From the NCBI RefSeq assembly GCF_048593235.1, contig NC_133618.1:478523294-478587293 (forward strand): a DNA stretch of 64,000 bases. The letters are read 5' to 3'. The DNA comes from Sminthopsis crassicaudata. Taxonomy: Eukaryota. A model generated the notes under the pieces. That model was not told where the DNA came from and searched no databases. It saw only the letters and a program-made list of their open reading frames with translations. Positions 15,500-43,700 of this stretch are shown in pieces. Each line of letters opens with the position of its first letter. The stretch's first letter is position 1. A program made the position numbers and the translations under genes.

Positions 15500-15796
15500 A
15501 GGATCAGGACTAACTTTCTTAACACAATGACAGTCTGCTTTTTAAAATTCAGATTTTCAGTTAAGTAAATCTAGAAGTAGATCTTTTCTGCTATCATTAT
15601 TAACATTAATATTATTAAAACTAACTAGGAATAGCTGGATGGCACAGTAGACAGAGCACCAGCCCTGGGGTCAGAAGGACCCGAGTTAAAAAACAAACAT
15701 TTGGAAAAAAAAATTAAATGAAGGTGGTCTAGCTGTACCTGATTTAGAACTATATTATAAAGCAACAAATACCAAAACCATTTGGTATTGGCTAAG

Positions 15797-16360
15797 TGTA
15801 ACGTGCTCTCCTGGCAGTTACAATTACTAGTCTGTCCTAGACCCACCAGAGTACCTTTGACCACTGTCCTTTGCAGTGTGAGCTCTACCCGGCTCGCCTC
15901 CTCTGAGGCCTTCTAAGGTCTCTGGTCACAATCTCTTGAATCTATAGCTTAGTAACCGGTAGCGCACTCAAGAACAGCCACGTGTAATCTTAAAAGCCTT
16001 TATTATACCTACTCACATAATGCCCTAGCTGATGCCCTGACTTGTTGGTTCCCGAGTGAACACCTGGTCAGAAGACCCATGTGTTCACTACCAAAATCCT
16101 TACCTCTTTCGGCTACCCATCTTGGCTTGGCCACCCAGGCTGGTGAGCCAGGGTGAACAGCACGAGGTTAAAGAGGGCGGTTGCTGCCTGCAGTGGGCTT
16201 ACATAGGGCCTGTGAGGTCACACACACAGCCAATCAGCGAGAGAGTCACCCATTACGAAACTATCTCAATATGGCCAGGATCCCGCCCAAGGGCAGTCCT
16301 AATACTTCTGGGCCTCAATCTCCCGATGCACTGTGTCCGCCCATTTAAAGGGCCCTTACA
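15797..16360 (-). mobile_element. 3' LTR (564 bp, identical to the 5' LTR by eye)
   Basis: Preceded on the minus strand by the polypurine tract; AATAAA at 16004-15999. Confidence 0.95.
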
Positions 16361-16378
16361 ATTCCCTTTCTCTTGTTT
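16361..16378 (-). other. Polypurine tract (AAACAAGAGAAAGGGAAT)
   Basis: Purine run abutting the TG of the 3' LTR. Confidence 0.85.
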
Positions 16379-16697
16379 TGCGGGAACCGCACATCTCATC
16401 AAGCTAAACTTTTAGCACCAGCTATAGTTCACTTGATCCATGAGATGACAGAGTGTTATGCCCAAGGAGGTACAAAGCAGCAGATCAGTAAACAGAAGTA
16501 TGACAATGAGAACCAGGCTCAACAGTGGCCCAAGTGTTCAACCCATTCATCAAAGTCATACTCGAGATAAGCCAAAGAGGTTGGATGCCAATGAGGTAGG
16601 ATGTCAACACTGAGGTGGGAAGTCAACAAGGTAAAACATCACAATTCTAGTTAGCAAATATCAGTAGGTAGGTTGTCACAATTCTAGTTACATTTAT

Positions 16698-17113
16698 CAC
16701 AGTTCTAGACCAATTCTAGTTTCTTACAATTTTCTGTTGCACTTTTCACACTCCTAGAACAATTCTAGCTTATCACAATTCTCAATTGCACTTGTCACAA
16801 TTCTAGAACAATTCTAGCTTATCACAATTCTCTATTGCACTTTTCACAATTCTAGAACAATTCTAGCTTATCACAATTCTCAATTGCATTTGTCACAATC
16901 CTAGAACAATTCTAGTTTATCACAATTCTCAATTGCATTTGTCACAATCCTAGAACAATTCTAGTTTATCACAATTCTCAATTGCACTTTTTCACAATTC
17001 TAGAACAATTCTAGCTTATCACAATTCTCTATTGCACTTTTCACAATCCTAGAACAATTCTAGCTTATCACAATTCTCTATTGCACTTTTCACAATTCTA
17101 GAACAATTCTAGT
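16698..17113. repeat. 49-bp minisatellite, about 8 units (tcacaattctagaacaattctagcttatcacaattctctattgcacttt), inside the LTR element
   Basis: ttctagaaca recurs at 16801 and 16850 and onward at about 49-bp spacing; the unit is built from acaattct sub-repeats. Confidence 0.95.
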
Positions 17114-17323
17114 TTCACAGGTGCACATAAGCAAAGTCATGTCCAGTAACATTGTCTCAATAACAATGGCAGGTGGGTGTGTTGGTTTTTCACCCACTAA
17201 TTTAAAAGCATAGTCCTTCAATAGAAAGCATAGGGCAAAGCCTCTTCCCAGGCCACCATATGGCAAGTGGCCACGGGAGAAGCAAGCAGGCCCATTGTCC
17301 ATTTACAGTCTTTATATTGCGTA

Positions 17324-17600
17324 TCACCCAAAACAGTCCATTTCAGCTGCAACATTGGAACTGTGTCTGGTGTCTCTGGTGTCACGGTCAGGAGGGGCAT
17401 CGCTGCCATCAGCGTCTGAAGGGCTGCGGACATCTGGCTGGTCTCTCTGGACTGTTGCCTGGTCCTTCTCTTGGATCCCCAGGTTACAAATGTCTCTGGT
17501 GGGGATGAACTCTGCTGCTGGATCTGCACCTAGGAAGGAATGTCCCCGGGGCCCAACTTGGGCCTTTCCAAATGCCATCCAGGCCTTTCCACATCACAGT
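17324..17600 (-). pseudogene. Degenerate betaretroviral integrase C-terminal remnant, possibly overlapping an env leader remnant
   Basis: VMWKGLDGIWKGP, then after a frameshift GPRGHSF...FIPTRDI; resembles the WKDP..WKGP..WGRG..WIPTRH tail of ERVK integrases. Confidence 0.5.
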
Positions 17601-17700
17601 GGAAACAAAGTTGTTGTCAAAAAGATTAACAAGTCAGACAAAAGTCAGTCTGTCACTTAGCTGCACTTTCTGTGTATGCCCGAAGTGCATTGCTAAGGTA

Positions 17701-17868
17701 AAATGCAAAGAATTTAAAAATGTAAAACCAAAATAATTTAAAAGTGTAAAACCGAAATAGATTAAAAATGTAAAACCAAAATAACTTTAAAATGTAAAAT
17801 CAAAATACTTTGAAGATGTAAAATCAAAAATGTTTTAAAATGTAAAATCAAAATTTAAAAATTGTAAG
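17701..17868. repeat. 24-bp AT-rich minisatellite, 6-7 units, inside the LTR element
   Basis: tgtaaaa at 17721, 17745, 17769, 17793, 17817 and 17841. Confidence 0.92.
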
Positions 17869-18033
17869 CAATCACATATCCCAAAATTCCCTTCTCTTGT
17901 TTAGAAGAGAAGATCTTGGGGATAGTCTGTGCAGTAATGACTTTACTAGAACACTCGGCTATATCCCTGAATTTTTTTGCCTAAAAATCAAAGTTTGAAT
18001 TTCTGATACCGAATTGTACTCCAGGAGTGTGAA

Positions 18034-19059
18034 TCAATAAATCTGATATTTTCCTCCTGGGTCAAAGATCACACACTGTCTATTTATTCTAGTGATTAAA
18101 ACAGCAATTTTCCAACCCATTCTAGGCATAAACACTGTTTTATAAGTACCCGTAGGGGGTTGGGAAATCAAGCTCACCTGTGGAAGTGGAAAATCCACGA
18201 GGTAAGAAAAGAGGAGTTTCAACTCTCCAAAGACGATCCTAGCAGTTTTACAAGTATAAAACTCCACTCTCTCTAACTGCAAGGTCTTATCCCTGTAAGA
18301 TTTCTTAGAAATTAACTGAACTGTATTTTTAAAACTTTTCTGATTATACTCAATACCCCACAATTCCTTTTTGCCTTGGGCCATAAAGACCACTCCTGTC
18401 CTTTGAGATGAAGACACAGGAGTTTTGAATGGATTAATGAGCAGTGCTGATGGTATTATCGCCCTTCCTTTTCCTCCTCCCCCTTCTCCCTTGGCCCAAG
18501 AAGGTGAGGCAGAGGGAAGAAGAATTGGAAAATCCCCCAAAGGCTGATTCAAAATCAAACCTGAGCTTTGCACATAAAAAGAACTAAACTTCTTCTCAAT
18601 GAAAGAGTAATCAATAAATTCCTTAAAACAACAATGCAGGAGGTAAACCAACAAAATGCTAAGAAGAATTTCTACAACTGAAGTCCATGTGGTTCCTTTA
18701 TTTCCTTCCTTAGTTTCAGCCACTGGTTTGAACTCTTCCTGTTCTATCTGTAGTAACCTAGCTTTTTCTTCTTTCTCTATCTCAATCTGTAGTTTAACCT
18801 GCAATTCCAGCAACTCTTGCTGTGGCATTTTATACTCTCTACTGTCATACAATCGCATTAGCTCTAGGTTGCTCCCTCTCCGAGCTGTATCTAATAGGTG
18901 TGGGGATAGCCTTCTGGGAGCCTGATTACAAGCTTCCTGCTGTTCTTCAGTGGTGATCTTTGTTAAAAGATCTTCCATCTGGCTCTTTAACCTCTTTATA
19001 TAATAAGCATTATGTTCAGCTGTGTCCTTGAGTCTGATCCCAGATTTACCTGGGTCCAT
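18034..19059 (-). CDS. Orphan 341-aa ORF of the LTR element (coiled-coil N-terminus, one predicted TM helix at about aa 125-145, unknown C-terminal domain)
   Basis: ATG in strong Kozak context (gcaatATGG) about 100 nt after the PBS; no internal stops over 1026 nt; no Gag, protease, RT or Env motifs recognised. Confidence 0.7.
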   Translation of the reverse strand: MDPGKSGIRLKDTAEHNAYYIKRLKSQMEDLLTKITTEEQQEACNQAPRRLSPHLLDTARRGSNLELMRLYDSREYKMPQQELLELQVKLQIEIEKEEKARLLQIEQEEFKPVAETKEGNKGTTWTSVVEILLSILLVYLLHCCFKEFIDYSFIEKKFSSFYVQSSGLILNQPLGDFPILLPSASPSWAKGEGGGGKGRAIIPSALLINPFKTPVSSSQRTGVVFMAQGKKELWGIEYNQKSFKNTVQLISKKSYRDKTLQLERVEFYTCKTARIVFGELKLLFSYLVDFPLPQVSLISQPPTGTYKTVFMPRMGWKIAVLITRINRQCVIFDPGGKYQIY

Positions 19060-19162
19060 ATTGCTTCTCTGTCTTCCCTCTTAAGTGGCGTTTCTACCGG
19101 ATCTTTCAGAATCTTAATTCTGAATATTAAATATTTTCAAAACCTGATAATTCCTTATGTGT

Positions 19163-19180
19163 CCACCACGTTGGGCGCCA
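19163..19180 (-). other. Primer binding site, tRNA-Lys1,2 type (TGGCGCCCAACGTGG...)
   Basis: Begins 2 nt after the 5' LTR; the first 15 nt match the TGGCGCCCAACGTGGGGC Lys1,2 PBS. Confidence 0.9.
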
Positions 19181-19182
19181 TT

Positions 19183-19746
19183 TGTAACGTGCTCTCCTGG
19201 CAGTTACAATTACTAGTCTGTCCTAGACCCACCAGAGTACCTTTGACCACTGTCCTTTGCAGTGTGAGCTCTACCCGGCTCGCCTCCTCTGAGGCCTTCT
19301 AAGGTCTCTGGTCACAATCTCTTGAATCTATAGCTTAGTAACCGGTAGCGCACTCAAGAACAGCCACGTGTAATCTTAAAAGCCTTTATTATACCTACTC
19401 ACATAATGCCCTAGCTGATGCCCTGACTTGTTGGTTCCCGAGTGAACACCTGGTCAGAAGACCCATGTGTTCACTACCAAAATCCTTACCTCTTTCGGCT
19501 ACCCATCTTGGCTTGGCCACCCAGGCTGGTGAGCCAGGGTGAACAGCACGAGGTTAAAGAGGGCGGTTGCTGCCTGCAGTGGGCTTACATAGGGCCTGTG
19601 AGGTCACACACACAGCCAATCAGCGAGAGAGTCACCCATTACGAAACTATCTCAATATGGCCAGGATCCCGCCCAAGGGCAGTCCTAATACTTCTGGGCC
19701 TCAATCTCCCGATGCACTGTGTCCGCCCATTTAAAGGGCCCTTACA
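19183..19746 (-). mobile_element. 5' LTR (564 bp)
   Basis: Followed on the minus strand by the PBS; has CCAAT and GC boxes, and AATAAA at 19390-19385. Confidence 0.95.
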
Positions 19747-19752
19747 GCTAAG

Positions 19753-35200: not shown

Positions 35201-38200
35201 GAATTTTGTTATGAGGGCACAATCAGTGTCATCTTCTCTGACTATGTGATTGGCAAAGCTAAGAATAGGTTTTTGTAGATAAGTTGCCAAACATCTTAAA
35301 ACTACAAGTCAGAGAATAGTTACAAGAGAGCTAACAATTGATAAGTTTTTTCCCAGAAGACACATCTTAGAAAAGAAATAGGTAAATCAGAACAACATTC
35401 TACTATTATGTTGAGTGTACCTTGAAGATGTACCTAGCTTTCAAAAACTAGCCCAAAGTAAAGAGAGTTATAGAGAAGAATGGTATAAACTAAAAGCTCA
35501 AGTTAATATAACAATGAAATAGAATGTTAGGGCTACAAATTTCCTGAAGCAACATGGTGGATATACTATATTTGTCTTAGAATTCCACAAAATTGCTACT
35601 AATATTTAGTAGGAGACTTGAAGATAAATATTATCCTAGGACTAAATATGGTGTTGATGAAGTAGTTATTCAAAACAACTTTACTAATGATTTTTAAAGA
35701 CAGTTTTCAGAAAACTGTCCATTGTTCTATTACATATGCACTTACTTCAGCAGATCAATGATTATTACATGTTTGACTGAATGACTTTATCCACAAACCA
35801 ACCAAACGATTTCTATTTCCAAATTTTGCCTTTACAAATTAACATTCCCCAAGTAAACTGATAAACTCAGATATCAATATGTTTAAAAAATAAATAGGAA
35901 ACTGTTCTGAGTATGTAGAAAATTTCAAGAAACCCTTAAAAATATCCATGAATGGAAATTAATAAGTAAATTCTATAATTGGAAAGTGTTATACAGAGGT
36001 AAACTATTATCATATTCTATTAATATATCAGAGACCAAGAGATCTGCTTGGTCTATTCCTCATTTAAGAACTGGAAACATTTTTAAGTATTTACATTTTA
36101 AAAATAAGCTTAATTAGCTCAGTATCCATTGTTGCTGTTCTCCCTAAGCAATGAAGTTGCGCATAGTAGATACTATGATTAGGTACTATGGTACTAAGAT
36201 TTGTGAGAGAAGAAAAAATAAATTTATTTTCTAATCAAAGTATATCTAATGCCATATTTTACATTTTTAAATAGGATTATAATACTTCCCATAACCCTCA
36301 TTATTGGGTTTGATTAAAAGATAGGCTTAGAGAGTATGAGAAGACATGAGAAAAAAGGAATAACTATTGCCTTTACTAAACTAAAAAAATTTTTTTCCTA
36401 TATAAGAGGAAGTCACCAATCTCACTCTTCAATGTTCAGTGAATCCTGCTTATGAAAGACTGAATGTGTCTTTTATATTCAACTATGACTACCATTTCAA
36501 ACAATGTTGCCCATCTGCTGTGAAGCACTTTACTCTTTAAGGTTCCAGCTGCTACCTCTGTTTATATATGTCTCATTGTTCATTATCCTATGAAATGATG
36601 TACTACCCAACCCCAAATTAGTCATTAGCATTTAACTCAGAATAAATAAAATATTCCTGCTTTTGTTTTTTATATGATGTTATAAGATATGACAGGGGGT
36701 AGGGTGGGGAGAATGAGAGATATTTTCTCTAAATCCAAACCATGACTATGATTTCCAGTCATTTCTGGAGGTAAAGATAGCATGGACTCTTTTCATAATG
36801 AGCATCAGCTATCACAATGTATAATTTTAGTGGCTTATCTTTAAGGGAAAGATAAGACAAATAGATTAGTCCACTGAAATTCTATAATGGAACGTACATT
36901 AATATTCGATATCTTCAATAGGTATATAAGTGAACTTATACCTGTTAAGGTCAGTTCAAATCCCAGCTGGTAGGGACACTTATTTAAATGTTAAATACAT
37001 ATAAAAATCACAGGCCAGAGACAGTGAGGCAGTCATCAAGATACAAATCAAGGCATTTTATTTAATGTTACCACGTGCTCTGTGCAGAAGGAATTCAAGA
37101 ATTTCCAAGAATTTCAGAGGTATAAAAGGACTTTCCAAATAGAATGAGATCTTCATTTAGAAGCTTATTCTTTCAGAAACCATCATTAATCCACTTAACT
37201 TGAGCTATTTGTTCTTCTTCAGAAGTTCACTAAGACATTTGGATCACATAAGAGCGCCTACACTGGAATAAGAATCTAGAGAGCTTGGCTTTAAGTCTGC
37301 CTGCCAGTAATTAGCTTTGTTACTCTATAGGCAAATCATTTTACCTCTCTAGGACTCAGTTTCCTTCCCAGTAAAAGGAAATGCTTAAAACAGATATTTG
37401 CAAGGATTTTTTCCAGGTATTATAGGACATCTAAAATCTAAGGGGAAGAGTGAGCAGTCTCAATTTAAGAGCTGGGAATACATAATTAGGCAAGGATTAC
37501 ATTTAATTCCACTGAGCGAGGAAGAATAAAAGAATATAGTAGAAGCATGATTATAGTAGCATGGAGAGAGTAAACTGGAGAGTTAAAAAATCATCTTTAT
37601 CAATACTGGAAAATAACAATGATCATACTTGTAGATTATGAATCTTACCGGTATCCTGACTGCAGTTCTTCCAATTGTTTCTCTTTTGGCCAAAACTTCA
37701 TCTGGGTCCAGCAAAAACTATATCCAAAAAACACATTCAAACAAGAGAGAGAATCTTAAACACAAAAACTGTGAGCATAAAGTTTGACCCAAAAAACTGT
37801 CTTTTCTAATCCAATCTTTTCCCCACAATACTAAGGATCCCTACAGTACTAGGATACTTGCAATCTATTTCAGGGAAGTAATTCCCCATATTTTACTTCT
37901 CTTGTACTCACCACAGCTACATCTGCCTTTCTTTTCCGGGATCGAGAGGATTCTGTTGAGCTGCTGCCACTTTGCTCATTTACCCTCTTCATGTTCTCTT
38001 CCTCTTTTCCATTCCCATCAGGGCTTCTTTCCCCCTTCCTTCCAGTACTGGGACTTTGATCATTCTTTCCGTCAAAGAGCTCACCAGCACTTGGATCTTG
38101 CCTGGCATCAGGATTGGGGTCTTCCCTGCCATCAGGTCTTGGATCTTCCCTGCCGTCAGGGGTTGGATTTTCCCTTGCATTTGGTCTTGGCTCATCCCTC

Positions 38201-39072
38201 CCATCAAAAAGTTCATGGAGACTTGGATCTTGCTCCCCACAGATAAGCTCATGAAAATTTGGATCTTCTTCCTCACAGATGAGATCAATAGGATTTGGGT
38301 CTTCTTCCTCACAAATAAAGTCATCCTCATCAGGGTGTGGGATTTCCTCCTCACAAATAAGATCATCAGGGTTTGGGCCTTGCTCCTCACAAATAAGATC
38401 ATCTGAGTTTGGGTCTTCTTCCTCACAAATAAGTTCATCTGCGTTGGGATATTCTTCGTCACAGATAAGCTCCTCAGGACTGGCATCTTCCTCGTCAATG
38501 GCATCTTCTTCATCACACATAAGCTCATCAAGGATGGGATCTTCCTCTTCACAGATCAGCTCATCGGCATGGGGATCTTCTTCCTCACAGACAAGCTCAT
38601 CTAAGCTCGAACCTTCCTCCTCACAGACAAGCTCATCTAAGCTCGAACCTTCCTCTTCACAAACAAGTTCGTTGGGGTTTGGATCTTCCTCTTCATAGAT
38701 AACTTCATCAAAGCTTGGATCATCGCCATAAACAAGCTCATCAATACTTGGATCTTCTTCCCCGTCAAAGAGCTCATCAGGGCTTGGCTCATGCGTACCG
38801 TTCATAAGCACATCGGGACTCCGCTCCTGTGTACCATTCATAAGCTCATCATGGCTTGGCTCTTCCTTTCCATTCACAAGTTCACCGGAGTTTGGTTCTT
38901 CCTTCTCATCAACATGATCTTCCTTCCCATCCTGGGCAAATTCCTCCTTCTCGTGGCATTCCTCAGAACCACTGCAAAAAATAAAACCAATGGGGATTAT
39001 TGGGAGGAGCTTTGCCCCTCAACCAACTTCTCTCTTTCCCTGCCACAGAGATACTCACCTTTCTCTGGACAT
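29177..39072 (-). CDS. CCNE1: Cyclin E1 (G1/S-specific), spliced CDS of 11 coding exons, 2172 nt / about 723 aa, with a roughly 316-aa acidic repeat insertion near the N-terminus
   Basis: Exons assembled by hand: 39059-39072, 37912-38971, 37649-37717, 33318-33448, 33077-33212, 31395-31541, 30761-30856, 30365-30502, 30137-30248, 29885-30042, 29177-29287. All introns are GT-AG and the joined frame is open. The peptide has the cyclin E hallmarks [22 protein letters not shown], the cyclin box ([21 protein letters not shown]) and the C-terminal LLTPPPS degron. Confidence 0.97.
29885..30042 (-). CDS. CCNE1: CCNE1 exon 11 ([19 protein letters not shown]...[13 protein letters not shown])
   Basis: 158 bp, ttttccag|GA...CTG|gtcagt. 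Confidence 0.97.
30137..30248 (-). CDS. CCNE1: CCNE1 exon 10 ([37 protein letters not shown])
   Basis: 112 bp, tag|CTT...CAG|gtaagt. Confidence 0.97.
30365..30502 (-). CDS. CCNE1: CCNE1 exon 9 ([46 protein letters not shown])
   Basis: 138 bp (one codon longer than human), tag|GCC...GAG|gtaagt. Confidence 0.98.
30761..30856 (-). CDS. CCNE1: CCNE1 exon 8 ([32 protein letters not shown])
   Basis: 96 bp, cag|GAA...AAG|gtaagt. Confidence 0.98.
31395..31541 (-). CDS. CCNE1: CCNE1 exon 7 ([23 protein letters not shown]...FIAAKLE)
   Basis: 147 bp, cag|GTG...GAG|gtaaaa; cyclin box core. Confidence 0.98.
33077..33212 (-). CDS. CCNE1: CCNE1 exon 6 ([45 protein letters not shown])
   Basis: 136 bp with canonical splice sites; start of the cyclin box. 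Confidence 0.97.
33318..33448 (-). CDS. CCNE1: CCNE1 exon 5 ([44 protein letters not shown])
   Basis: 131 bp, ttcttcaacag|GCT...GG|gtgagt; contains TPDK and TPLPLL, homologous to human TPDK and SPLPVL; phase fits exon 6. Confidence 0.9.
37649..37717 (-). CDS. CCNE1: CCNE1 exon 4 ([23 protein letters not shown])
   Basis: 69 bp, tag|TTT...CCG|gtaaga; matches human FLQDPDEEMAK exon in length and sequence. Confidence 0.93.
37912..38971 (-). CDS. CCNE1: CCNE1 exon 3, expanded to 1060 bp (acidic LxCxE repeat array, then NMKR...[14 protein letters not shown])
   Basis: Acceptor tttattttttgcag|T and donor GTG|gtgagt. Open frame for 353 codons ending in the conserved cyclin E NLS RSRKRK. Entry phase matches exon 2. 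Confidence 0.9.
38086..38202 (-). repeat. Coding 24-bp (8-aa) repeat, about 5 units, consensus GREDPRPD
   Basis: GRDEPRPN / ARENPTPD / GREDPRPD / GREDPNPD / ARQDPSA in the exon 3 translation. Confidence 0.85.
38200..38904 (-). repeat. Coding 36-bp (12-aa) minisatellite, about 19 units, consensus EEEDPNPDELIC
   Basis: Periodic gagcttatctgtgaggaagaagatcc motif. Units 38585-38620 and 38621-38656 are identical at 35 of 36 nt. Confidence 0.95.
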
Positions 39073-39102: not shown

Positions 39103-40180
39103 CTAGAGGGACAGAAAGAGGAAAGATTAAAAGGACTAAGTCTTTGCCGAATTGTAGCGATCTATCCTGCGGCCATCTAATTCCCAAGAGGCCACCTCCC
39201 ACCTAGTCCTTCCACCTTCTCTCCCAGGGCAGTGGCAGGGAAAGCCTTCCAAGCCTGGGGGGAGGCGGGGAGAAGGAATGGCAATTTGGAAAGAGAGAGG
39301 GGCTACGCATTCTCAACCCCAATCTCCAAGAGATAACCTACCCACCCATTGCAATGAGACTTTCTAACCTCCCGCTCAGCCCTCTGAGAACAGCGGTCCA
39401 CGCGGTACGCTAATCTTTCAAACTCAAGTGCAACCAGGACTACCAGACTTGCTTCTGTGGGTTTATGTGCAAAGTTAGGGAACTGGGGTGGTATGGGGCA
39501 AAGTCCCTCCACCCTGTCCCCTCTTGGCACATCTCCACACAAACCATCAGGCACGAGAAAAAAAAGCAACCTAGTGGTAGTAGCTGCGGTGCGGCGGTGG
39601 AGGCGGCGGCGGCGGTTCATACGGATAATTCTGGGGTCCGCACTATCCCGATTCCCCTGCTCTCGAATCTCACTCACCTACTCAACCTCCCCCTTACCTC
39701 CGCCGTTGCACTGGCAGGCGGCCACACACCGGGAATCCAGGTGGCAGAAGCAATGACCGAGCAAGGCAGGAGTCTTGCCAGGGGTAGCCTTGCCAACCTG
39801 CCGGATGACAGGCGGCTAGTACCGCGGACCTGGGTCAAGTCTGCTAGCGAGCTGACCGTGCACTCCTCTGCCTCTACCTCCCTAGCCCATCTGAGCCTAT
39901 CTCCCGCCTGCTCACTGCCCGCTCTGGGGCTGGCTGGCTCCAGCTTGCTGGCTGGCTGGCTGGGCTGGCCTGCCCGCCCTCAGGGGCGGCGTTTGCGGCT
40001 CCCACTCCCCGCCCTCCTTCACCGATCTCCCGCCTCCACATGCAGCTCCTCCCGCCAAGCCACACCGTGCGGAGTGTGGCCCTTGCCGGCTCCGCCGACT
40101 GGTCTTGACCGGTGGCGGCTGAAGGACGCAGAGCTCCATCTCTGGCACCAGCCGCTGTCATTGCGCTGGAAGGATGAGGA

Positions 40181-40278
40181 TGCGAGGACCCGGCTGCAAG
40201 GACCCGGCTGCGAGGACCCGGCTGCAAGATAGGCTGCAGGGTCTTGGCTGCAGGGACTTGGCCGCAGGGATTTGGCTG
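40181..40278. repeat. 14-bp GC-rich minisatellite in the CpG island (gaggacccggctgc x3, then ggctgcagggactt-like x3)
   Basis: Seen directly in the sequence. Confidence 0.85.
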
Positions 40279-40424
40279 ACTCCGCACTGTGAAGACTTGG
40301 CTGCTGGCACTTGGCTGTTATCAGAACTCCGTGGTGGAACTCCGTAGCTGTGGCGCCGGGATACCCACCACACCACCTCCCTCCTCCTCCCGCCCTCTTT
40401 TGGGAACCCCAGGTGCATCCTTAC

Positions 40425-40770
40425 CCGCAGCGGGCGGCGGCTGGTGGCAGAAGCGGCAGCGGGCACAGGCGGTGGAGGCTGTGGCAGAGGAGCTGGAGGA
40501 GGCGGTGGGGGTGGCGGTGGAGGCAGAGGTTGAGGAGGTGGAGGTGGTGGCGGCGGCAGAGGCGGCGGGGGCTGCTGGTGAATGCCCGCAGGCGGCAGCT
40601 GGCGATCGGGGTTGGCCGAGGGAGGCAGGGTGAAGAGGAGGAGAGGCAAAGGCCGGAGGCGAAGAAGTAGGAGGCCGAAGGAGGCGAAGCTCGGAGCTCC
40701 TGGGCAGCTCTGGTGGGATGTGCAGGGCGCAGCTACCTTCCTTTATACCCTGACTGCCCGCGCCCCCCTC
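40425..40770 (-). other. Putative non-coding exon 1 of CCNE1
   Basis: Runs from the CERM-like TSS to a donor CGG|gtaagg at 40424. Other donors exist (39697, 41536), so the exon cannot be fixed without RNA data. Confidence 0.4.
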
Positions 40771-40771
40771 C

Positions 40772-40789
40772 AGCGGGACATTAAAAAAA
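40772..40789 (-). promoter_or_regulatory. CERM-like element (AT-rich tract plus variant E2F site, TTTTTTTAATGTCCCGCT) at the likely TSS
   Basis: Closely resembles the TTTTAAATGTCCCGCT cyclin E repressor module of the mouse/human cyclin E promoter. Confidence 0.75.
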
Positions 40790-43700
40790 TATCTAAGGCG
40801 CGCAGTGGCCCCCCCACCCCACCCCCTCATTTCTCCCCCTCCTCTCCTTACTTCCCCACCCCCACTCCCTACCCTCCTCCCCCTACCCCCACCCCAGGTC
40901 TGGCCAGTCCCGGCCTCAGTGCTTGGGCCGGACCAGGGCCAGCTCTCTCTGCCTGGGCGTCGAACTCTGGAGGTAGGGGGCACGGGGCCAGCAGCTCCGG
41001 ATGGGAGGCTGCACCGCCCCCCCACCCCCTTCAACGTGCAGGGAGCATGCGCATTAAAGTGCAGCTGCCTAAGTGGGGGGGGGGGCCTCCTGGAGCTCTG
41101 GGAGAGGCGAAGGGAGGGGGGGGTGCTTGCAACTCTAGGGCCCGGGGAAGGGAGGCGGGGCTGGCCCAAGCACTGAGCTGAAGGAGCTGCAAAAAAACAG
41201 CGTGGTCGGCTCCAAATCCGTGTAAACAAGGGAGCGATTGTATAGCCGTTTTGGAGGGGGGGGAATGAGTATGGGGCCCCCAGACTTCAGTCTTGGTTCC
41301 AGCCTCAGAATTGGGGAACGGTATGGGATGAACTTAGAAAGTGGAGTGGAAGGGAGGCGTTACTGTTCTCTGGTGCCGTCGCGGTCGTAGTTGAGCTTGG
41401 TGTCTTTCTCCACGGTGTGTGGCGGGAGGGAGTCTTAGCCTCTTTTCTTGAGTTTTGAGACCGTGCCGCTAGTCCCACCTCTCCCACTTCTCCCCTTTTT
41501 GGGGATATATCTAACGCAGGATAACACCAAACTTACCTGGCTCTGCAGAAACTTGTGTGATTTTCCATTCTTCTGCCTCTCATTCATGCGCAACCACTGA
41601 TTCCAAGTCTTGGGACACCTTTCCAACCCAGGTCGAGCTTTCTAGCTCTTGAGACCTCTTCGCACTTACGGGCTGTTGCAGCCATTCTGGCCCCTGGTTT
41701 TATGCACCTTAGTACTTAGCTGTACATGGGTCTTGCATTGATATCAGACATGACTGTGAATTGGGGTTCTTCCAAAGGAACCTTCCAAAAGACTGTAAAC
41801 TGAAATATGATGTTCCTGGGCCCCTCAACAAAATGCCACAGCCATATTTTCTGAACCAAAATTGGGAGTGGGGGAAAGTTTTATCTGACAAAGAATGTTT
41901 CTTTGGGAAAGCATCCTTGGTTGAAATATACTTTCTTTTCTTAAAATGAAACTCTGAAAAATACAGAGTTTAGAATCTCTACTCCCAAACCCAACTCTAG
42001 GAGGTGTAGTAGATACTTGATTATATTTGTGGGATGAATGAGTGAATGAATAAAGACATAGCTGTTTCGTGGGAAGAGAATGGATTTGGAGTCAGAGGTC
42101 CTGTATTCATTATCAAGCTCTGCTGCTTACCGCTAGTGTGACTTTTGGCAAATTAGTTTCTTTATCTATCGATCACAGGTTGGACTCTCCATAGATGAAG
42201 ATCTAACTGACATTTAGTGCTTCTTCAAATGAATAAGGATGACAGGATGTTATGAATAAATGGATAATGATAGAGGGCTTCTGCCAATTAATGAATAAAG
42301 ATGATGGTCTCCATGGTGCCTGGTGTGAGAGGGATTGCAAACTGATTACTAGGCTCCAGGTGTGCTTGGGGAAAGAGAGGCAGGGAGAAACCTGAGTAAG
42401 TTGATCATGCAGTTTAATTGTACTGAGTTAAAGGAATAGGCTTTTAACCCAAATCTTTCTCTTATTGACTCTGATTTGTGAGGCAACTCCCTTAATCTCT
42501 TTGGGTCTCAGTTCCCATTCTGTAAAATGAAAATTAAATGGAATTAGATTAGACCTGCCAACAAAAAACACCTTCCAACTCAACAGTCAGTGATTTTTTT
42601 TAAGTTCATGAGGCAAAATTTAATTAAACAAACATTTATTTATTTATTTTTGAGTACTCACCATATACAAATCTCTACTAGGGAAATCCAAGATAAAATA
42701 TGTCCACTGGCCTCAAAAAGCTTACAGTTTAGTGCTCATTTAGGAAAACTAAATCTTCCTTAATCCCTTGGTTTTCTGTTTTCCTGATCCTTTCCTAGAC
42801 CATTTTTACTGAAGTTTAGGGAATAACAAAATAGGGATTTGGAGGGAATGATACTGGTTTAGATTAGAGGAACAAGATTAGACACAAACATGGGAAATGG
42901 GAGAAGACAAGCGCCAAATTTGAAGAGAGCCATGCACATTTCATCATCTGGGGTAGGGACCTTTCTGCCTTTGGAGGGGGATCTCCCTGGGAAAGAGACA
43001 GCCTTCTCAGAGCACACTACACCTAATCCTCCCTTACAGATATACAAATTATAGTTCCTCTTGGGAGATATGGACATAATGAGGCAAGGCAAGCATTTTG
43101 AGGGTTTGTTTTCTCTCTGATAGTCCGTGAAGTTTGGGCAGCTGTGTGCACAACTGGACTTTGCTGTCACTGAGGCAGCCTCTGTCTGTTTGCAGTTGGT
43201 ATTGATTACACTCCAAGGAAGTGAGCTCTCCTTTATCCTTGGAGCTCAGTTTTCAGTTTAGGGATTATCTGGACCCAGGGCTTTGCCTTCCTGCCAGACA
43301 TTTGGATGTTTCTAGGCTCCCTTGTTAGTATCTCAACTCCTGTTTGTCAAAGAATGAATTGACCATTTGTTAACTGGTTTTGAGGAGTAGGGATAGTAGC
43401 AAAGCAGAGTGAAATTGTTGTCTGAGTCAGAACTGGGTAACCTGTATCACAGTTTGCTGTGAGTTCAACCAGAGACAACTTCTGAAGATTACCTGTCCAT
43501 TCCAATTACATCTCTTCTACCTTTCAAAACTAAGTCCAAGTGATTGGACTGATGAAACCAGTCTTGAAAGTTTCAGAACTATCCCTTAGGCAAAAATATG
43601 AAGTAATGGAAATCATCTTTAGCATCTGTACTTGGAACCACCTACCACAGACTTGAATTCTTGTACCCCTCCCAAATCTGAGGGTAGACCTCACTTTATC

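What the first reader, a model, noticed from the sequence alone, without database searches (positions are those of the whole stretch)
18034..19059. Intact orphan membrane-protein ORF occupies the gag position of a young LTR element
Seen: a 341-codon ORF with a strong Kozak ATG just after the PBS. It encodes helical/coiled-coil segments (QQELLELQVKLQIEIEKEEKARLLQIEQEE), a hydrophobic stretch ending in a di-Cys (WTSVVEILLSILLVYLLHCCF), a Gly-rich linker and a roughly 140-aa C-terminal region rich in likely beta-strands. It has no myristoylation MG, major homology region, CCHC knuckle, DTG or YxDD. It is uninterrupted, whereas the integrase/env traces in the same element are decayed. Inference: a non-autonomous betaretrovirus-like family that is mobilised in trans and carries a novel accessory or captured gene, possibly maintained for element fitness (for example restriction antagonism or membrane targeting).
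Basis: partly seen in the sequence, partly recalled or inferred. Interest (0 to 1): 0.7.

Follow-up and report, generated by a model that had tools for sequence, protein, structure and literature searches.

The report
Parasite retroelement keeps frame, not protein
The apparent orphan gene is a scrambled leftover of retroviral gag and pro genes in a ~900-copy stripped-down jumping element of a marsupial; its reading frame is kept open while its amino acids drift freely, so the element likely needs to be translated, rather than to make a specific protein, in order to be copied by a helper retrovirus.

Summary
The ORF is real (minus strand, 341 aa) and sits in a 3.95-kb element with identical 564-bp LTRs and a 6-bp TSD; about 900 copies exist. 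It is not a captured orphan gene. Codons ~170-215 derive from the gag spacer and ~215-337 from the gag end plus the degenerate dUTPase of envelope-less betaretrovirus-like ERVs of the same genome; capsid and nucleocapsid are deleted. Residues 1-100 remain unassigned; the hydrophobic segment is shared with an ancient sister family. In 61 copies sampled without regard to the ORF, 55 are full length. Shared indels are 9 of 9 in frame (non-coding control 2 of 20), shared stops 0 against 4-5 expected, yet dN/dS is about 1. Five hybrid insertions with one end from each family point to the helper. Best reading: translation is selected in cis (RNA stability and/or membrane tethering), as reported for mouse IAP 1-delta-1 and coronavirus defective RNAs. 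Expression and mechanism are untested.

The parts
19183..19746 (-). 5' LTR, 564 bp, TG..CA
   Evidence: identical to the 3' LTR
19747..19752 (.). target site duplication GCTAAG (second copy 15791-15796); the element sits in a LINE-1 ORF2 remnant
   Evidence: L1-like ORFs on both sides (L1 label from recalled motifs)
19163..19180 (-). primer binding site, tRNA-Lys(CTT) type, 16 of 18 nt
   Evidence: sequence; aberrant copies L102 and L057 carry a read-through copy of the primer with anticodon CTT
18034..19059 (-). 341-codon ORF (32 of 61 copies carry the older ~360-codon form, 23 the 341 form)
18760..19059 (-). codons 1-100, Q/E/K-rich; occupies the matrix position but homology to matrix is not statistically shown
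   Evidence: P 0.03-0.9
18625..18681 (-). hydrophobic segment (codons 127-145), predicted signal anchor; shared with an ancient sister non-autonomous family, not found in the autonomous gag genes examined
   Evidence: (z 7.1)
18415..18555 (-). codons ~169-215, derived from the Pro/Gly-rich gag spacer between matrix and capsid
   Evidence: nhmmer E 2e-4, z 7.0, profile E 5e-10
18319..18417 (-). codons ~215-247, derived from the gag 3' end / gag-pro overlap; capsid and nucleocapsid deleted; gag frame joined to pro frame at DNA level
   Evidence: profile match extends to this part in older ERV copies L248, L252; frame map
17956..18321 (-). degenerate dUTPase domain of pro (codons ~247-337); DNA homology runs on past the stop codon
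   Evidence: tblastn 38% identity, E 2e-8; nhmmer E 1e-21
17887..17902 (-). internal polypurine-tract-like motif at the matching place of integrase; kept in 56 of 61 copies
17698..17854 (-). U-rich 24-bp tandem repeat (6.5 copies) starting ~180 nt after the stop; candidate RNA element, function untested
17440..17640 (-). integrase C-terminal remnant
16669..17119 (.). 49-bp tandem repeat, 9.2 copies, variable among copies
16361..16379 (-). 3' polypurine tract
   Evidence: sequence
15797..16360 (-). 3' LTR

Best explanation
This is a young, ~900-copy non-autonomous class II LTR element whose single ORF is an eroded gag-pro deletion fusion; the frame is kept open while the amino acids drift, likely because each source copy's RNA has to be translated to the end of this frame in cis before a helper, envelope-less ERV packages and copies it. 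Shown: ancestry of codons ~170-337, selection on frame, near-neutral amino-acid change, hybrid insertions with the helper family. Inferred: that the need is in cis (a product acting in trans would also move copies with broken frames, and shared stops or frameshifts would then be common). Inferred and untested: the reason - an early stop would expose a >2-kb 3' UTR to UPF1 decay, and/or the emerging hydrophobic segment would hold the translating RNA at the ER or other membrane where helper Gag assembles; I rate these about equal and they can act together.
For: Frame: 55 of 61 junction-selected copies are full length. Shared indels in codons 1-335: 4 of 4 in frame in the young set, 6 of 6 in 17 older copies, 9 of 9 distinct events, against 2 of 20 in non-coding parts (Fisher P 5e-6) and 18 of 53 private indels (P 2e-4). 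Shared stops 0 against 5.1 expected (P 0.006), 0 against 3.8 without CpG sites (P 0.02). Amino acids: dN/dS 0.98 shared and 1.0 private; 1.30 (95% CI 0.77-2.30) and 0.99 without CpG sites; substitutions no more conservative than chance; deep net dN/dS 0.96-1.02 for the spacer, 1.27-1.34 for the dUTPase part against the sister family and 0.97 against the helper, whereas among 5 helper copies the same domain has pS 0.208, pN 0.087. A shared 4-nt deletion removes the last ~20 residues in 23 of 61 copies. Ancestry. Helper: 5 insertions with one end from each family and a 6-bp TSD. Membrane option: hydrophobic core kept across the deep split with net dN/dS 0.38-0.48. Precedents: IAP 1-delta-1 gag-pol fusion acts in cis (PMC6466679 and PMC7411935, passages); early stops in RSV gag trigger UPF1 decay (PMC2925335, background section); long ORF needed in coronavirus defective RNAs even if chimeric (PMC8255065, passage); co-translational ER targeting of Ty1 RNA (PMC3945221, abstract).
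Against: Private stops are also somewhat low in the young set (2 against 6.3, P 0.05), so part of the contrast may reflect youth or unsampled source lineages. One stop (codon 244, at an A/T run) is shared by 5 of 17 old copies and one +1 by 2 of 17; I read these as recurrent slippage, not shown. Several 3-nt deletions lie in tandem triplets, where slippage favours 3-nt events (31 such sites and 26 runs of 4 or more identical bases in the ORF). Some non-coding control indels may be one event counted twice; 9 of 10 against 2 of 17 still gives P about 1e-4 (hand calculation). In the ~80%-identical sister family only 3 of 8 indels shared by 4 or more of 30 copies are in frame, which is inconclusive at best. 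The low dN/dS of the hydrophobic core comes from a 16-codon window chosen after looking; its bootstrap range reaches 1.05-1.24 and the wider 27-codon window gives 0.74-0.86. dN/dS intervals are wide, and a mix of purifying and positive selection could average to 1. Residues 1-100 are unassigned. Translation, RNA levels and localisation were not measured.
Confidence: 0.65

Rival explanations
1. The ORF encodes a real cis-acting protein (membrane anchor plus a dUTPase-fold or coiled-coil binding module) that tethers its own RNA to helper Gag; fast change reflects relaxed or partly positive selection rather than no function.
For: Hydrophobic core and one Cys kept across the deep split; shared changes in the core are I/V and L/V; excess of shared non-synonymous changes in the dUTPase part (25 N, 4 S against 20 and 9 expected); a model built with dUTPase rows gives a beta fold with dUTPases as top Foldseek rows (circular, E 0.058 at best).
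Against: dN/dS about 1 in every segment but the hydrophobic core; no excess of conservative changes; last strand lost in 23 of 61 copies; all catalytic dUTPase motifs absent already in the helper; single-sequence model pLDDT 32.
Confidence: 0.2
2. A novel accessory or captured gene acting in trans (for example against a host restriction factor).
For: Residues 1-100 and the hydrophobic segment have no assigned source; high copy number; automatic gene models exist for 8 family members.
Against: About half of the ORF is colinear gag/pro remnant; a product acting in trans does not explain why source copies avoid frameshifts; no purifying selection on sequence.
Confidence: 0.07
3. No selection at all: the frame is open only because the family is young and descends from few sources, and 3-nt indels are a slippage bias.
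For: LTR pairs differ by 1.4 bases on average, 9 of 30 identical; dN/dS about 1; triplet repeats at indel sites; sister family test inconclusive.
Against: Copies differ by 3% (median), ten times their LTR divergence, with 111 shared substitutions and no shared stop; +39, -18, +6 and whole-codon gaps against the helper are all in frame; the frame has stayed open over ~66% DNA identity to the helper domain; non-coding shared indels are 2 of 20 in frame.
Confidence: 0.08

Closest known systems
Mouse IAP 1-delta-1 (non-autonomous class II element with an in-frame gag-pol deletion fusion that acts in cis; PMC6466679, PMC7411935, passages; primary paper Saito 2008 not held)
   Same: Class II, envelope-less helper, internal deletion that fuses gag to a downstream gene in frame, needs helper proteins in trans, frame needed in cis.
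   Different: Here the fusion is gag spacer to pseudo-dUTPase, the element has its own unrelated LTR, the ORF has drifted to 38-44% identity with dN/dS about 1, and it carries a hydrophobic segment not found in the helper gag genes examined.
MEBrv3 envelope-less IAP-like ERVs of Dasyuridae (PMC11334065; parts 1-3 of 7 read, rest by term search)
   Same: The parent/helper ERVs found here fit the description: class II gag-pro-pol intact, ~6.3-7.1 kb, near-identical LTRs, no env but a short ISD-like remnant.
   Different: The window element has no functional pol and only eroded gag/pro; the paper has no occurrence of 'dUTPase', 'non-autonomous' or 'nonautonomous'. No direct sequence comparison with published MEBrv3 was possible.
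ETn/MusD and bovine ERVK D-type elements (PMC6466679, PMC10924933, passages)
   Same: Non-autonomous partner that is mobilised by, and can outnumber, an autonomous class II element.
   Different: The bovine D-type is described as lacking full-length ORFs or functional genes, and ETn as non-coding (ETn part recalled); this family keeps a long frame under selection.
Coronavirus (MHV) defective interfering RNAs needing a long ORF even if chimeric and non-functional (PMC8255065, passage citing van der Most 1995)
   Same: Parasitic genome in which translation, not encoded sequence, is what is selected.
   Different: RNA virus in cell culture against a germ-line LTR retroelement; here the evidence is from genome sequence only.
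Retroviral dUTPase (PF00692) in the betaretroviral nucleocapsid-protease position
   Same: Position, length and colinear alignment of the helper domain.
   Different: Catalytic motifs are lost in the helper and further eroded in this ORF; not an enzyme.

Membership tests
Class II (betaretrovirus-like) LTR element | Paired LTRs with TG..CA ends and polypurine tract | tested here: met
Class II (betaretrovirus-like) LTR element | 6-bp target site duplication | tested here: met
   window; 28 of 30 full-length copies
Class II (betaretrovirus-like) LTR element | tRNA-Lys primer binding site | tested here: met
   ARAGORN found no whole tRNA in the three read-through loci, the anticodon was read by eye
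Class II (betaretrovirus-like) LTR element | gag/pro/pol related to class II ERVs | tested here: met
   remnants match ERVs with Gag_p10, Gag_p24, RVP, rve
Autonomous ERV (MEBrv3) | Intact gag, pro, pol | tested here: not met
   no capsid, nucleocapsid, protease or RT in 3.95 kb
Autonomous ERV (MEBrv3) | RT phylogeny places the helper in the published MEBrv3 clade | not testable with these tools
   published sequences not available; match is by description only
Non-autonomous trans-mobilised element (ETn / IAP 1-delta-1 kind) | Recent amplification without own enzymes | tested here: met
   922 motif matches; LTR pairs 1.4 mismatches on average
Non-autonomous trans-mobilised element (ETn / IAP 1-delta-1 kind) | Shares a particle with an autonomous helper | tested here: met
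   5 hybrid insertions with TSD: 3 of 70 junction loci, 2 of 30 integrase loci; indirect genomic evidence
IAP 1-delta-1-like cis-acting fusion ORF | In-frame deletion fusion of gag to a downstream gene | tested here: met
IAP 1-delta-1-like cis-acting fusion ORF | Translation needed in cis for mobilisation | not testable with these tools
   only the selection signature on frame
Trimeric dUTPase | Five catalytic motifs (motif definitions recalled) | tested here: not met
   absent from ORF and helper, present in canonical ERV dUTPases of the same genome
Trimeric dUTPase | Homology / fold | tested here: inconclusive
   ORF to helper domain strong (E 1e-21); helper domain to dUTPase moderate (hhalign 80%, P 1e-5; Pfam E 0.1; PDB E 0.23); ORF model pLDDT 58 and circular
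Gag matrix (Gag_p10) | Significant similarity of residues 1-100 to matrix | tested here: inconclusive
   not significant; the sister family has recognisable matrix at this place (E 2e-12)
Retroviral accessory / captured host gene | Non-gag/pol/env origin and purifying selection on protein sequence | tested here: not met

The most novel reading that the evidence does not exclude
A lineage of parasitic LTR elements evolved its own membrane anchor inside a decaying gag frame and uses the act of translating it to carry its RNA to the membrane where the helper retrovirus assembles - an LTR-element counterpart of Alu's hijacking of the ribosome - with the rest of the ORF acting only as a length spacer; the anchor has been kept across two waves of amplification while all flanking residues drift neutrally.
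Probability: 0.25. Interest if true: 0.75.

Novelty: new variant of a known kind. Interest (0 to 1): 0.5.

Why it matters
It gives a natural, many-copy test of a question so far addressed with single lab constructs: whether a non-autonomous retroelement must be translated to be packaged and copied, and whether the ribosome or the protein matters. Intact and naturally broken copies lie side by side in one genome, so RNA levels, ribosome load and localisation can be compared copy by copy without altering anything. It also warns that a long intact 'orphan' ORF with gene models in a young transposon is not evidence of a functional protein, and it adds a recently active parasite, with genomic evidence of its helper, to the dasyurid ERV expansion.

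Tried and rejected
Database searches for named relatives: Pfam, PDB sequences, 5.8-billion-protein search and 1.84-billion representative search return only the family itself; ESM Atlas hits (kinesin-like, score 0.80 or less) are at shuffle level and were rejected; the helper pro domain query found nothing. Single-sequence AlphaFold of the C-terminal 138 aa failed (pLDDT 32). Matrix homology of residues 1-100 was tried seven ways and is not significant; my first idea that the hydrophobic segment is matrix helix 4 was dropped after the sister family showed it lies after the matrix. An env or known-gag origin of the hydrophobic segment was not found. A compensating frameshift pair inside the dUTPase part seen against L134 vanished against the closer L248 and is not claimed. 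The first dN/dS (0.71) used best-hit copies and no transition correction and was superseded. Hydrophobic-segment values against helper are alignments of non-homologous sequence and were ignored. Expression: no RNA holder listed; contigs of four runs only guessed to be RNA cover the element but no silent-stretch control is available, so expression stays open. Literature: 10 searches found no description of this family; most subscription journals and repeat libraries (Repbase, Dfam) were not searchable, so absence from print is not shown. Saito 2008 and Ribet 2008 were not held. No supplements were read; those of PMC11334065 may hold related sequences. Rows dropped: 9 of 70 junction loci had no ORF region; 13 of 30 loci lacked the +39 marker and were left out of the old set; 10 of 40 full-length fetches lacked a cleanly delimited LTR pair.

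Full report
Observation. The ORF lies on the minus strand, 19059 to 18034, 341 codons. It belongs to an element at 15797-19746 with two identical 564-bp LTRs, a 6-bp target site duplication, a tRNA-Lys type PBS and a polypurine tract, inserted in a LINE-1 remnant. Pfam, PDB and two very large protein searches return nothing but the family itself: one cluster of 8 automatic gene models labelled Sminthopsis crassicaudata, 89-95% identical for the six aligned. The host is therefore a dasyurid, very probably a dunnart.

Family. A 21-base motif from the ORF start occurs 922 times in the genome (control 0); the exact LTR/PBS junction 288 times. I took the first 70 junction matches on contig C1, chosen without regard to the ORF. 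61 hold the ORF region and 55 of these have a frame of at least 337 codons: 32 end in a ~360-codon form, 23 in the window's 341 form. Of 30 cleanly delimited copies, 28 have a 6-bp TSD, 9 have identical LTRs, and the mean is 1.4 mismatches per pair, while copies differ from each other by 3%: many source lineages, recent insertions.

Ancestry. Integrase-bearing ERVs of the same genome are envelope-less class II elements with open gag, pro and pol frames that fit the description of MEBrv3 (PMC11334065, parts 1-3 of 7 read). ORF residues 248-335 match the 5' part of their pro frame (38% identity, E 2e-8; DNA E 1e-21; profile of older copies up to E 2e-35), and the DNA match runs past the stop; the 360 form continues the pro frame, so it is the older one. 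That helper domain stands between nucleocapsid and protease and aligns end to end with canonical ERV dUTPases of the same genome but lacks the catalytic motifs (hhalign 80%, P 1e-5; Pfam E 0.1; the only two PDB matches, E 0.23, are retroviral dUTPase chains). Codons ~170-215 match the Pro/Gly-rich gag spacer; codons ~215-247 match the gag end and gag-pro overlap, with the change from gag to pro frame fixed in the DNA. Older copies keep further colinear pieces of integrase (E about 1e-20). So the element is a multiply deleted descendant of this ERV lineage. A still older sister family (30 loci, ~80% identical) has the same spacer-to-dUTPase junction, a recognisable matrix (E 2e-12) and the same hydrophobic segment (z 7.1; profile rank 1 of 3001 for an old copy and 3-4 of 3001 for the window copy). 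That segment was not found in the autonomous gag or class I env loci examined. Residues 1-100 occupy the matrix position and show scattered resemblance, but no test was significant. Env traces were not confirmed. A structure model of the C-terminal domain built with dUTPase rows gives a beta fold with dUTPases as top rows at weak E-values; this is circular and adds little.

Selection. Variants seen in two or more copies arose mostly in replicating sources; single-copy variants mostly after insertion (inference). In the 61 young copies shared substitutions are 31 synonymous, 80 non-synonymous, 0 stops (5.1 expected, P 0.006), dN/dS 0.98; private ones 38, 98, 2 (6.3 expected), dN/dS 1.0. Without CpG sites: 1.30 (CI 0.77-2.30) and 0.99, stops 0 against 3.8, and no bias to conservative changes. 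Shared indels are 4 of 4 in frame; in 17 copies of an older subfamily 6 of 6; 9 of 9 distinct events, against 2 of 20 in LTR and 3' non-coding parts and 18 of 53 private indels. Against this: one stop shared by 5 old copies and one +1 by 2, both at A/T runs, triplet repeats at several indel sites, and an inconclusive sister family (3 of 8). Across the deep split, net dN/dS is about 1 for the spacer and 1.3 for the dUTPase part, while 5 helper copies show constraint on that domain (pS 0.208, pN 0.087); only the hydrophobic core is lower (0.38-0.48, range reaching 1.2, window chosen after looking).

Helper. Five insertions have one end from this family and the other from one subfamily of the envelope-less ERV, each flanked by a 6-bp TSD: three are LTR-plus-PBS copies of the two families joined head to head at the primer sites (3 of 70 junction loci), two join the 3' halves (2 of 30 integrase loci). 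Such molecules require both templates in one reverse-transcription complex (inference), which identifies the helper although the LTRs of the two families are unrelated. An earlier unchecked note on this genome describes the same kind of joint (e1-9002883).

Mechanism. A product acting in trans would move broken copies as well as intact ones, so clean frames in source lineages imply a need in cis (inference). Near-neutral amino-acid change and a dispensable C-terminus suggest that the ribosome's passage, more than the protein, is what is needed. Two routes fit: protection from UPF1 decay, since the stop already leaves about 2 kb of 3' UTR and early stops destabilise unspliced RSV RNA (PMC2925335, background section; PMC4764554, abstract); and co-translational membrane tethering through the hydrophobic segment, with the downstream frame extending the time on the membrane (compare Ty1, PMC3945221, abstract). 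The U-rich repeat after the stop is not CU-rich like a classical PTBP1 site, so it is only a candidate. Neither route, nor expression, was tested.

Comparison and verdict. It works like mouse IAP 1-delta-1, whose gag-pol fusion acts in cis (PMC6466679, PMC7411935, passages), and like coronavirus defective RNAs that need a long frame of any sequence (PMC8255065, passage). It differs in how far the protein has eroded, in the added anchor and in having its own LTR. It is not an autonomous MEBrv3, not a dUTPase enzyme and not a captured gene. My ten literature searches found no description of the family, but repeat libraries and most subscription papers were out of reach. Verdict: new variant of a known kind; interest 0.5.

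Noticed in passing
G000:C7:28.0-29.3 Mb: About 20 weak dUTPase (PF00692) matches clustered on the minus strand, most in open frames of 134-140 aa: possibly a tandem array of a dUTPase-derived gene.
   Followed up: no
L093, L098, L128, L145, L146, L102, L047, L057: Aberrant integrants: head-to-head joins of LTR-plus-primer-site copies, within the family or with the helper family, some with read-through copies of the tRNA-Lys(CTT) primer; TSDs shown for six of them.
   Followed up: yes
L307:1890-4510 and L308-L337: An ancient sister non-autonomous family (3979 first-look candidates, not a copy count) with matrix, hydrophobic segment and the same gag-spacer/dUTPase junction.
   Followed up: partly
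L131, L132, L140, L143 against L134, L138: Two kinds of envelope-less class II ERV: in some gag and pro form one open frame of 767-797 aa, in others they overlap; some carry two primer sites in tandem (Lys1,2-like and Lys3-like); the degenerate dUTPase shows constraint among them.
   Followed up: partly
window 17887-17902: Internal polypurine-tract-like motif at the matching place in integrase, kept in 56 of 61 copies; a similar purine tract stands there in the helper: possible central PPT.
   Followed up: partly
window 18180 and 17533 (minus strand): A splice donor inside the ORF and an acceptor in the integrase remnant; the end of gene model P0008 fits a splice between them.
   Followed up: no
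window 37870-38841 (minus) and 39300-41200: A 323-codon acidic ORF of ~12-residue repeats (36-nt unit) next to a GC-rich region that looks like a gene start.
   Followed up: no
L338-L359, L220-L226: Groups of near-identical ERV loci with open class I env frames (689-706 aa) and class II gag/dUTPase, i.e. other recent ERV families in this genome.
   Followed up: no
L236-L238; L034/L035; L057/L058: Tandem head-to-tail copies of the element sharing LTRs.
   Followed up: no
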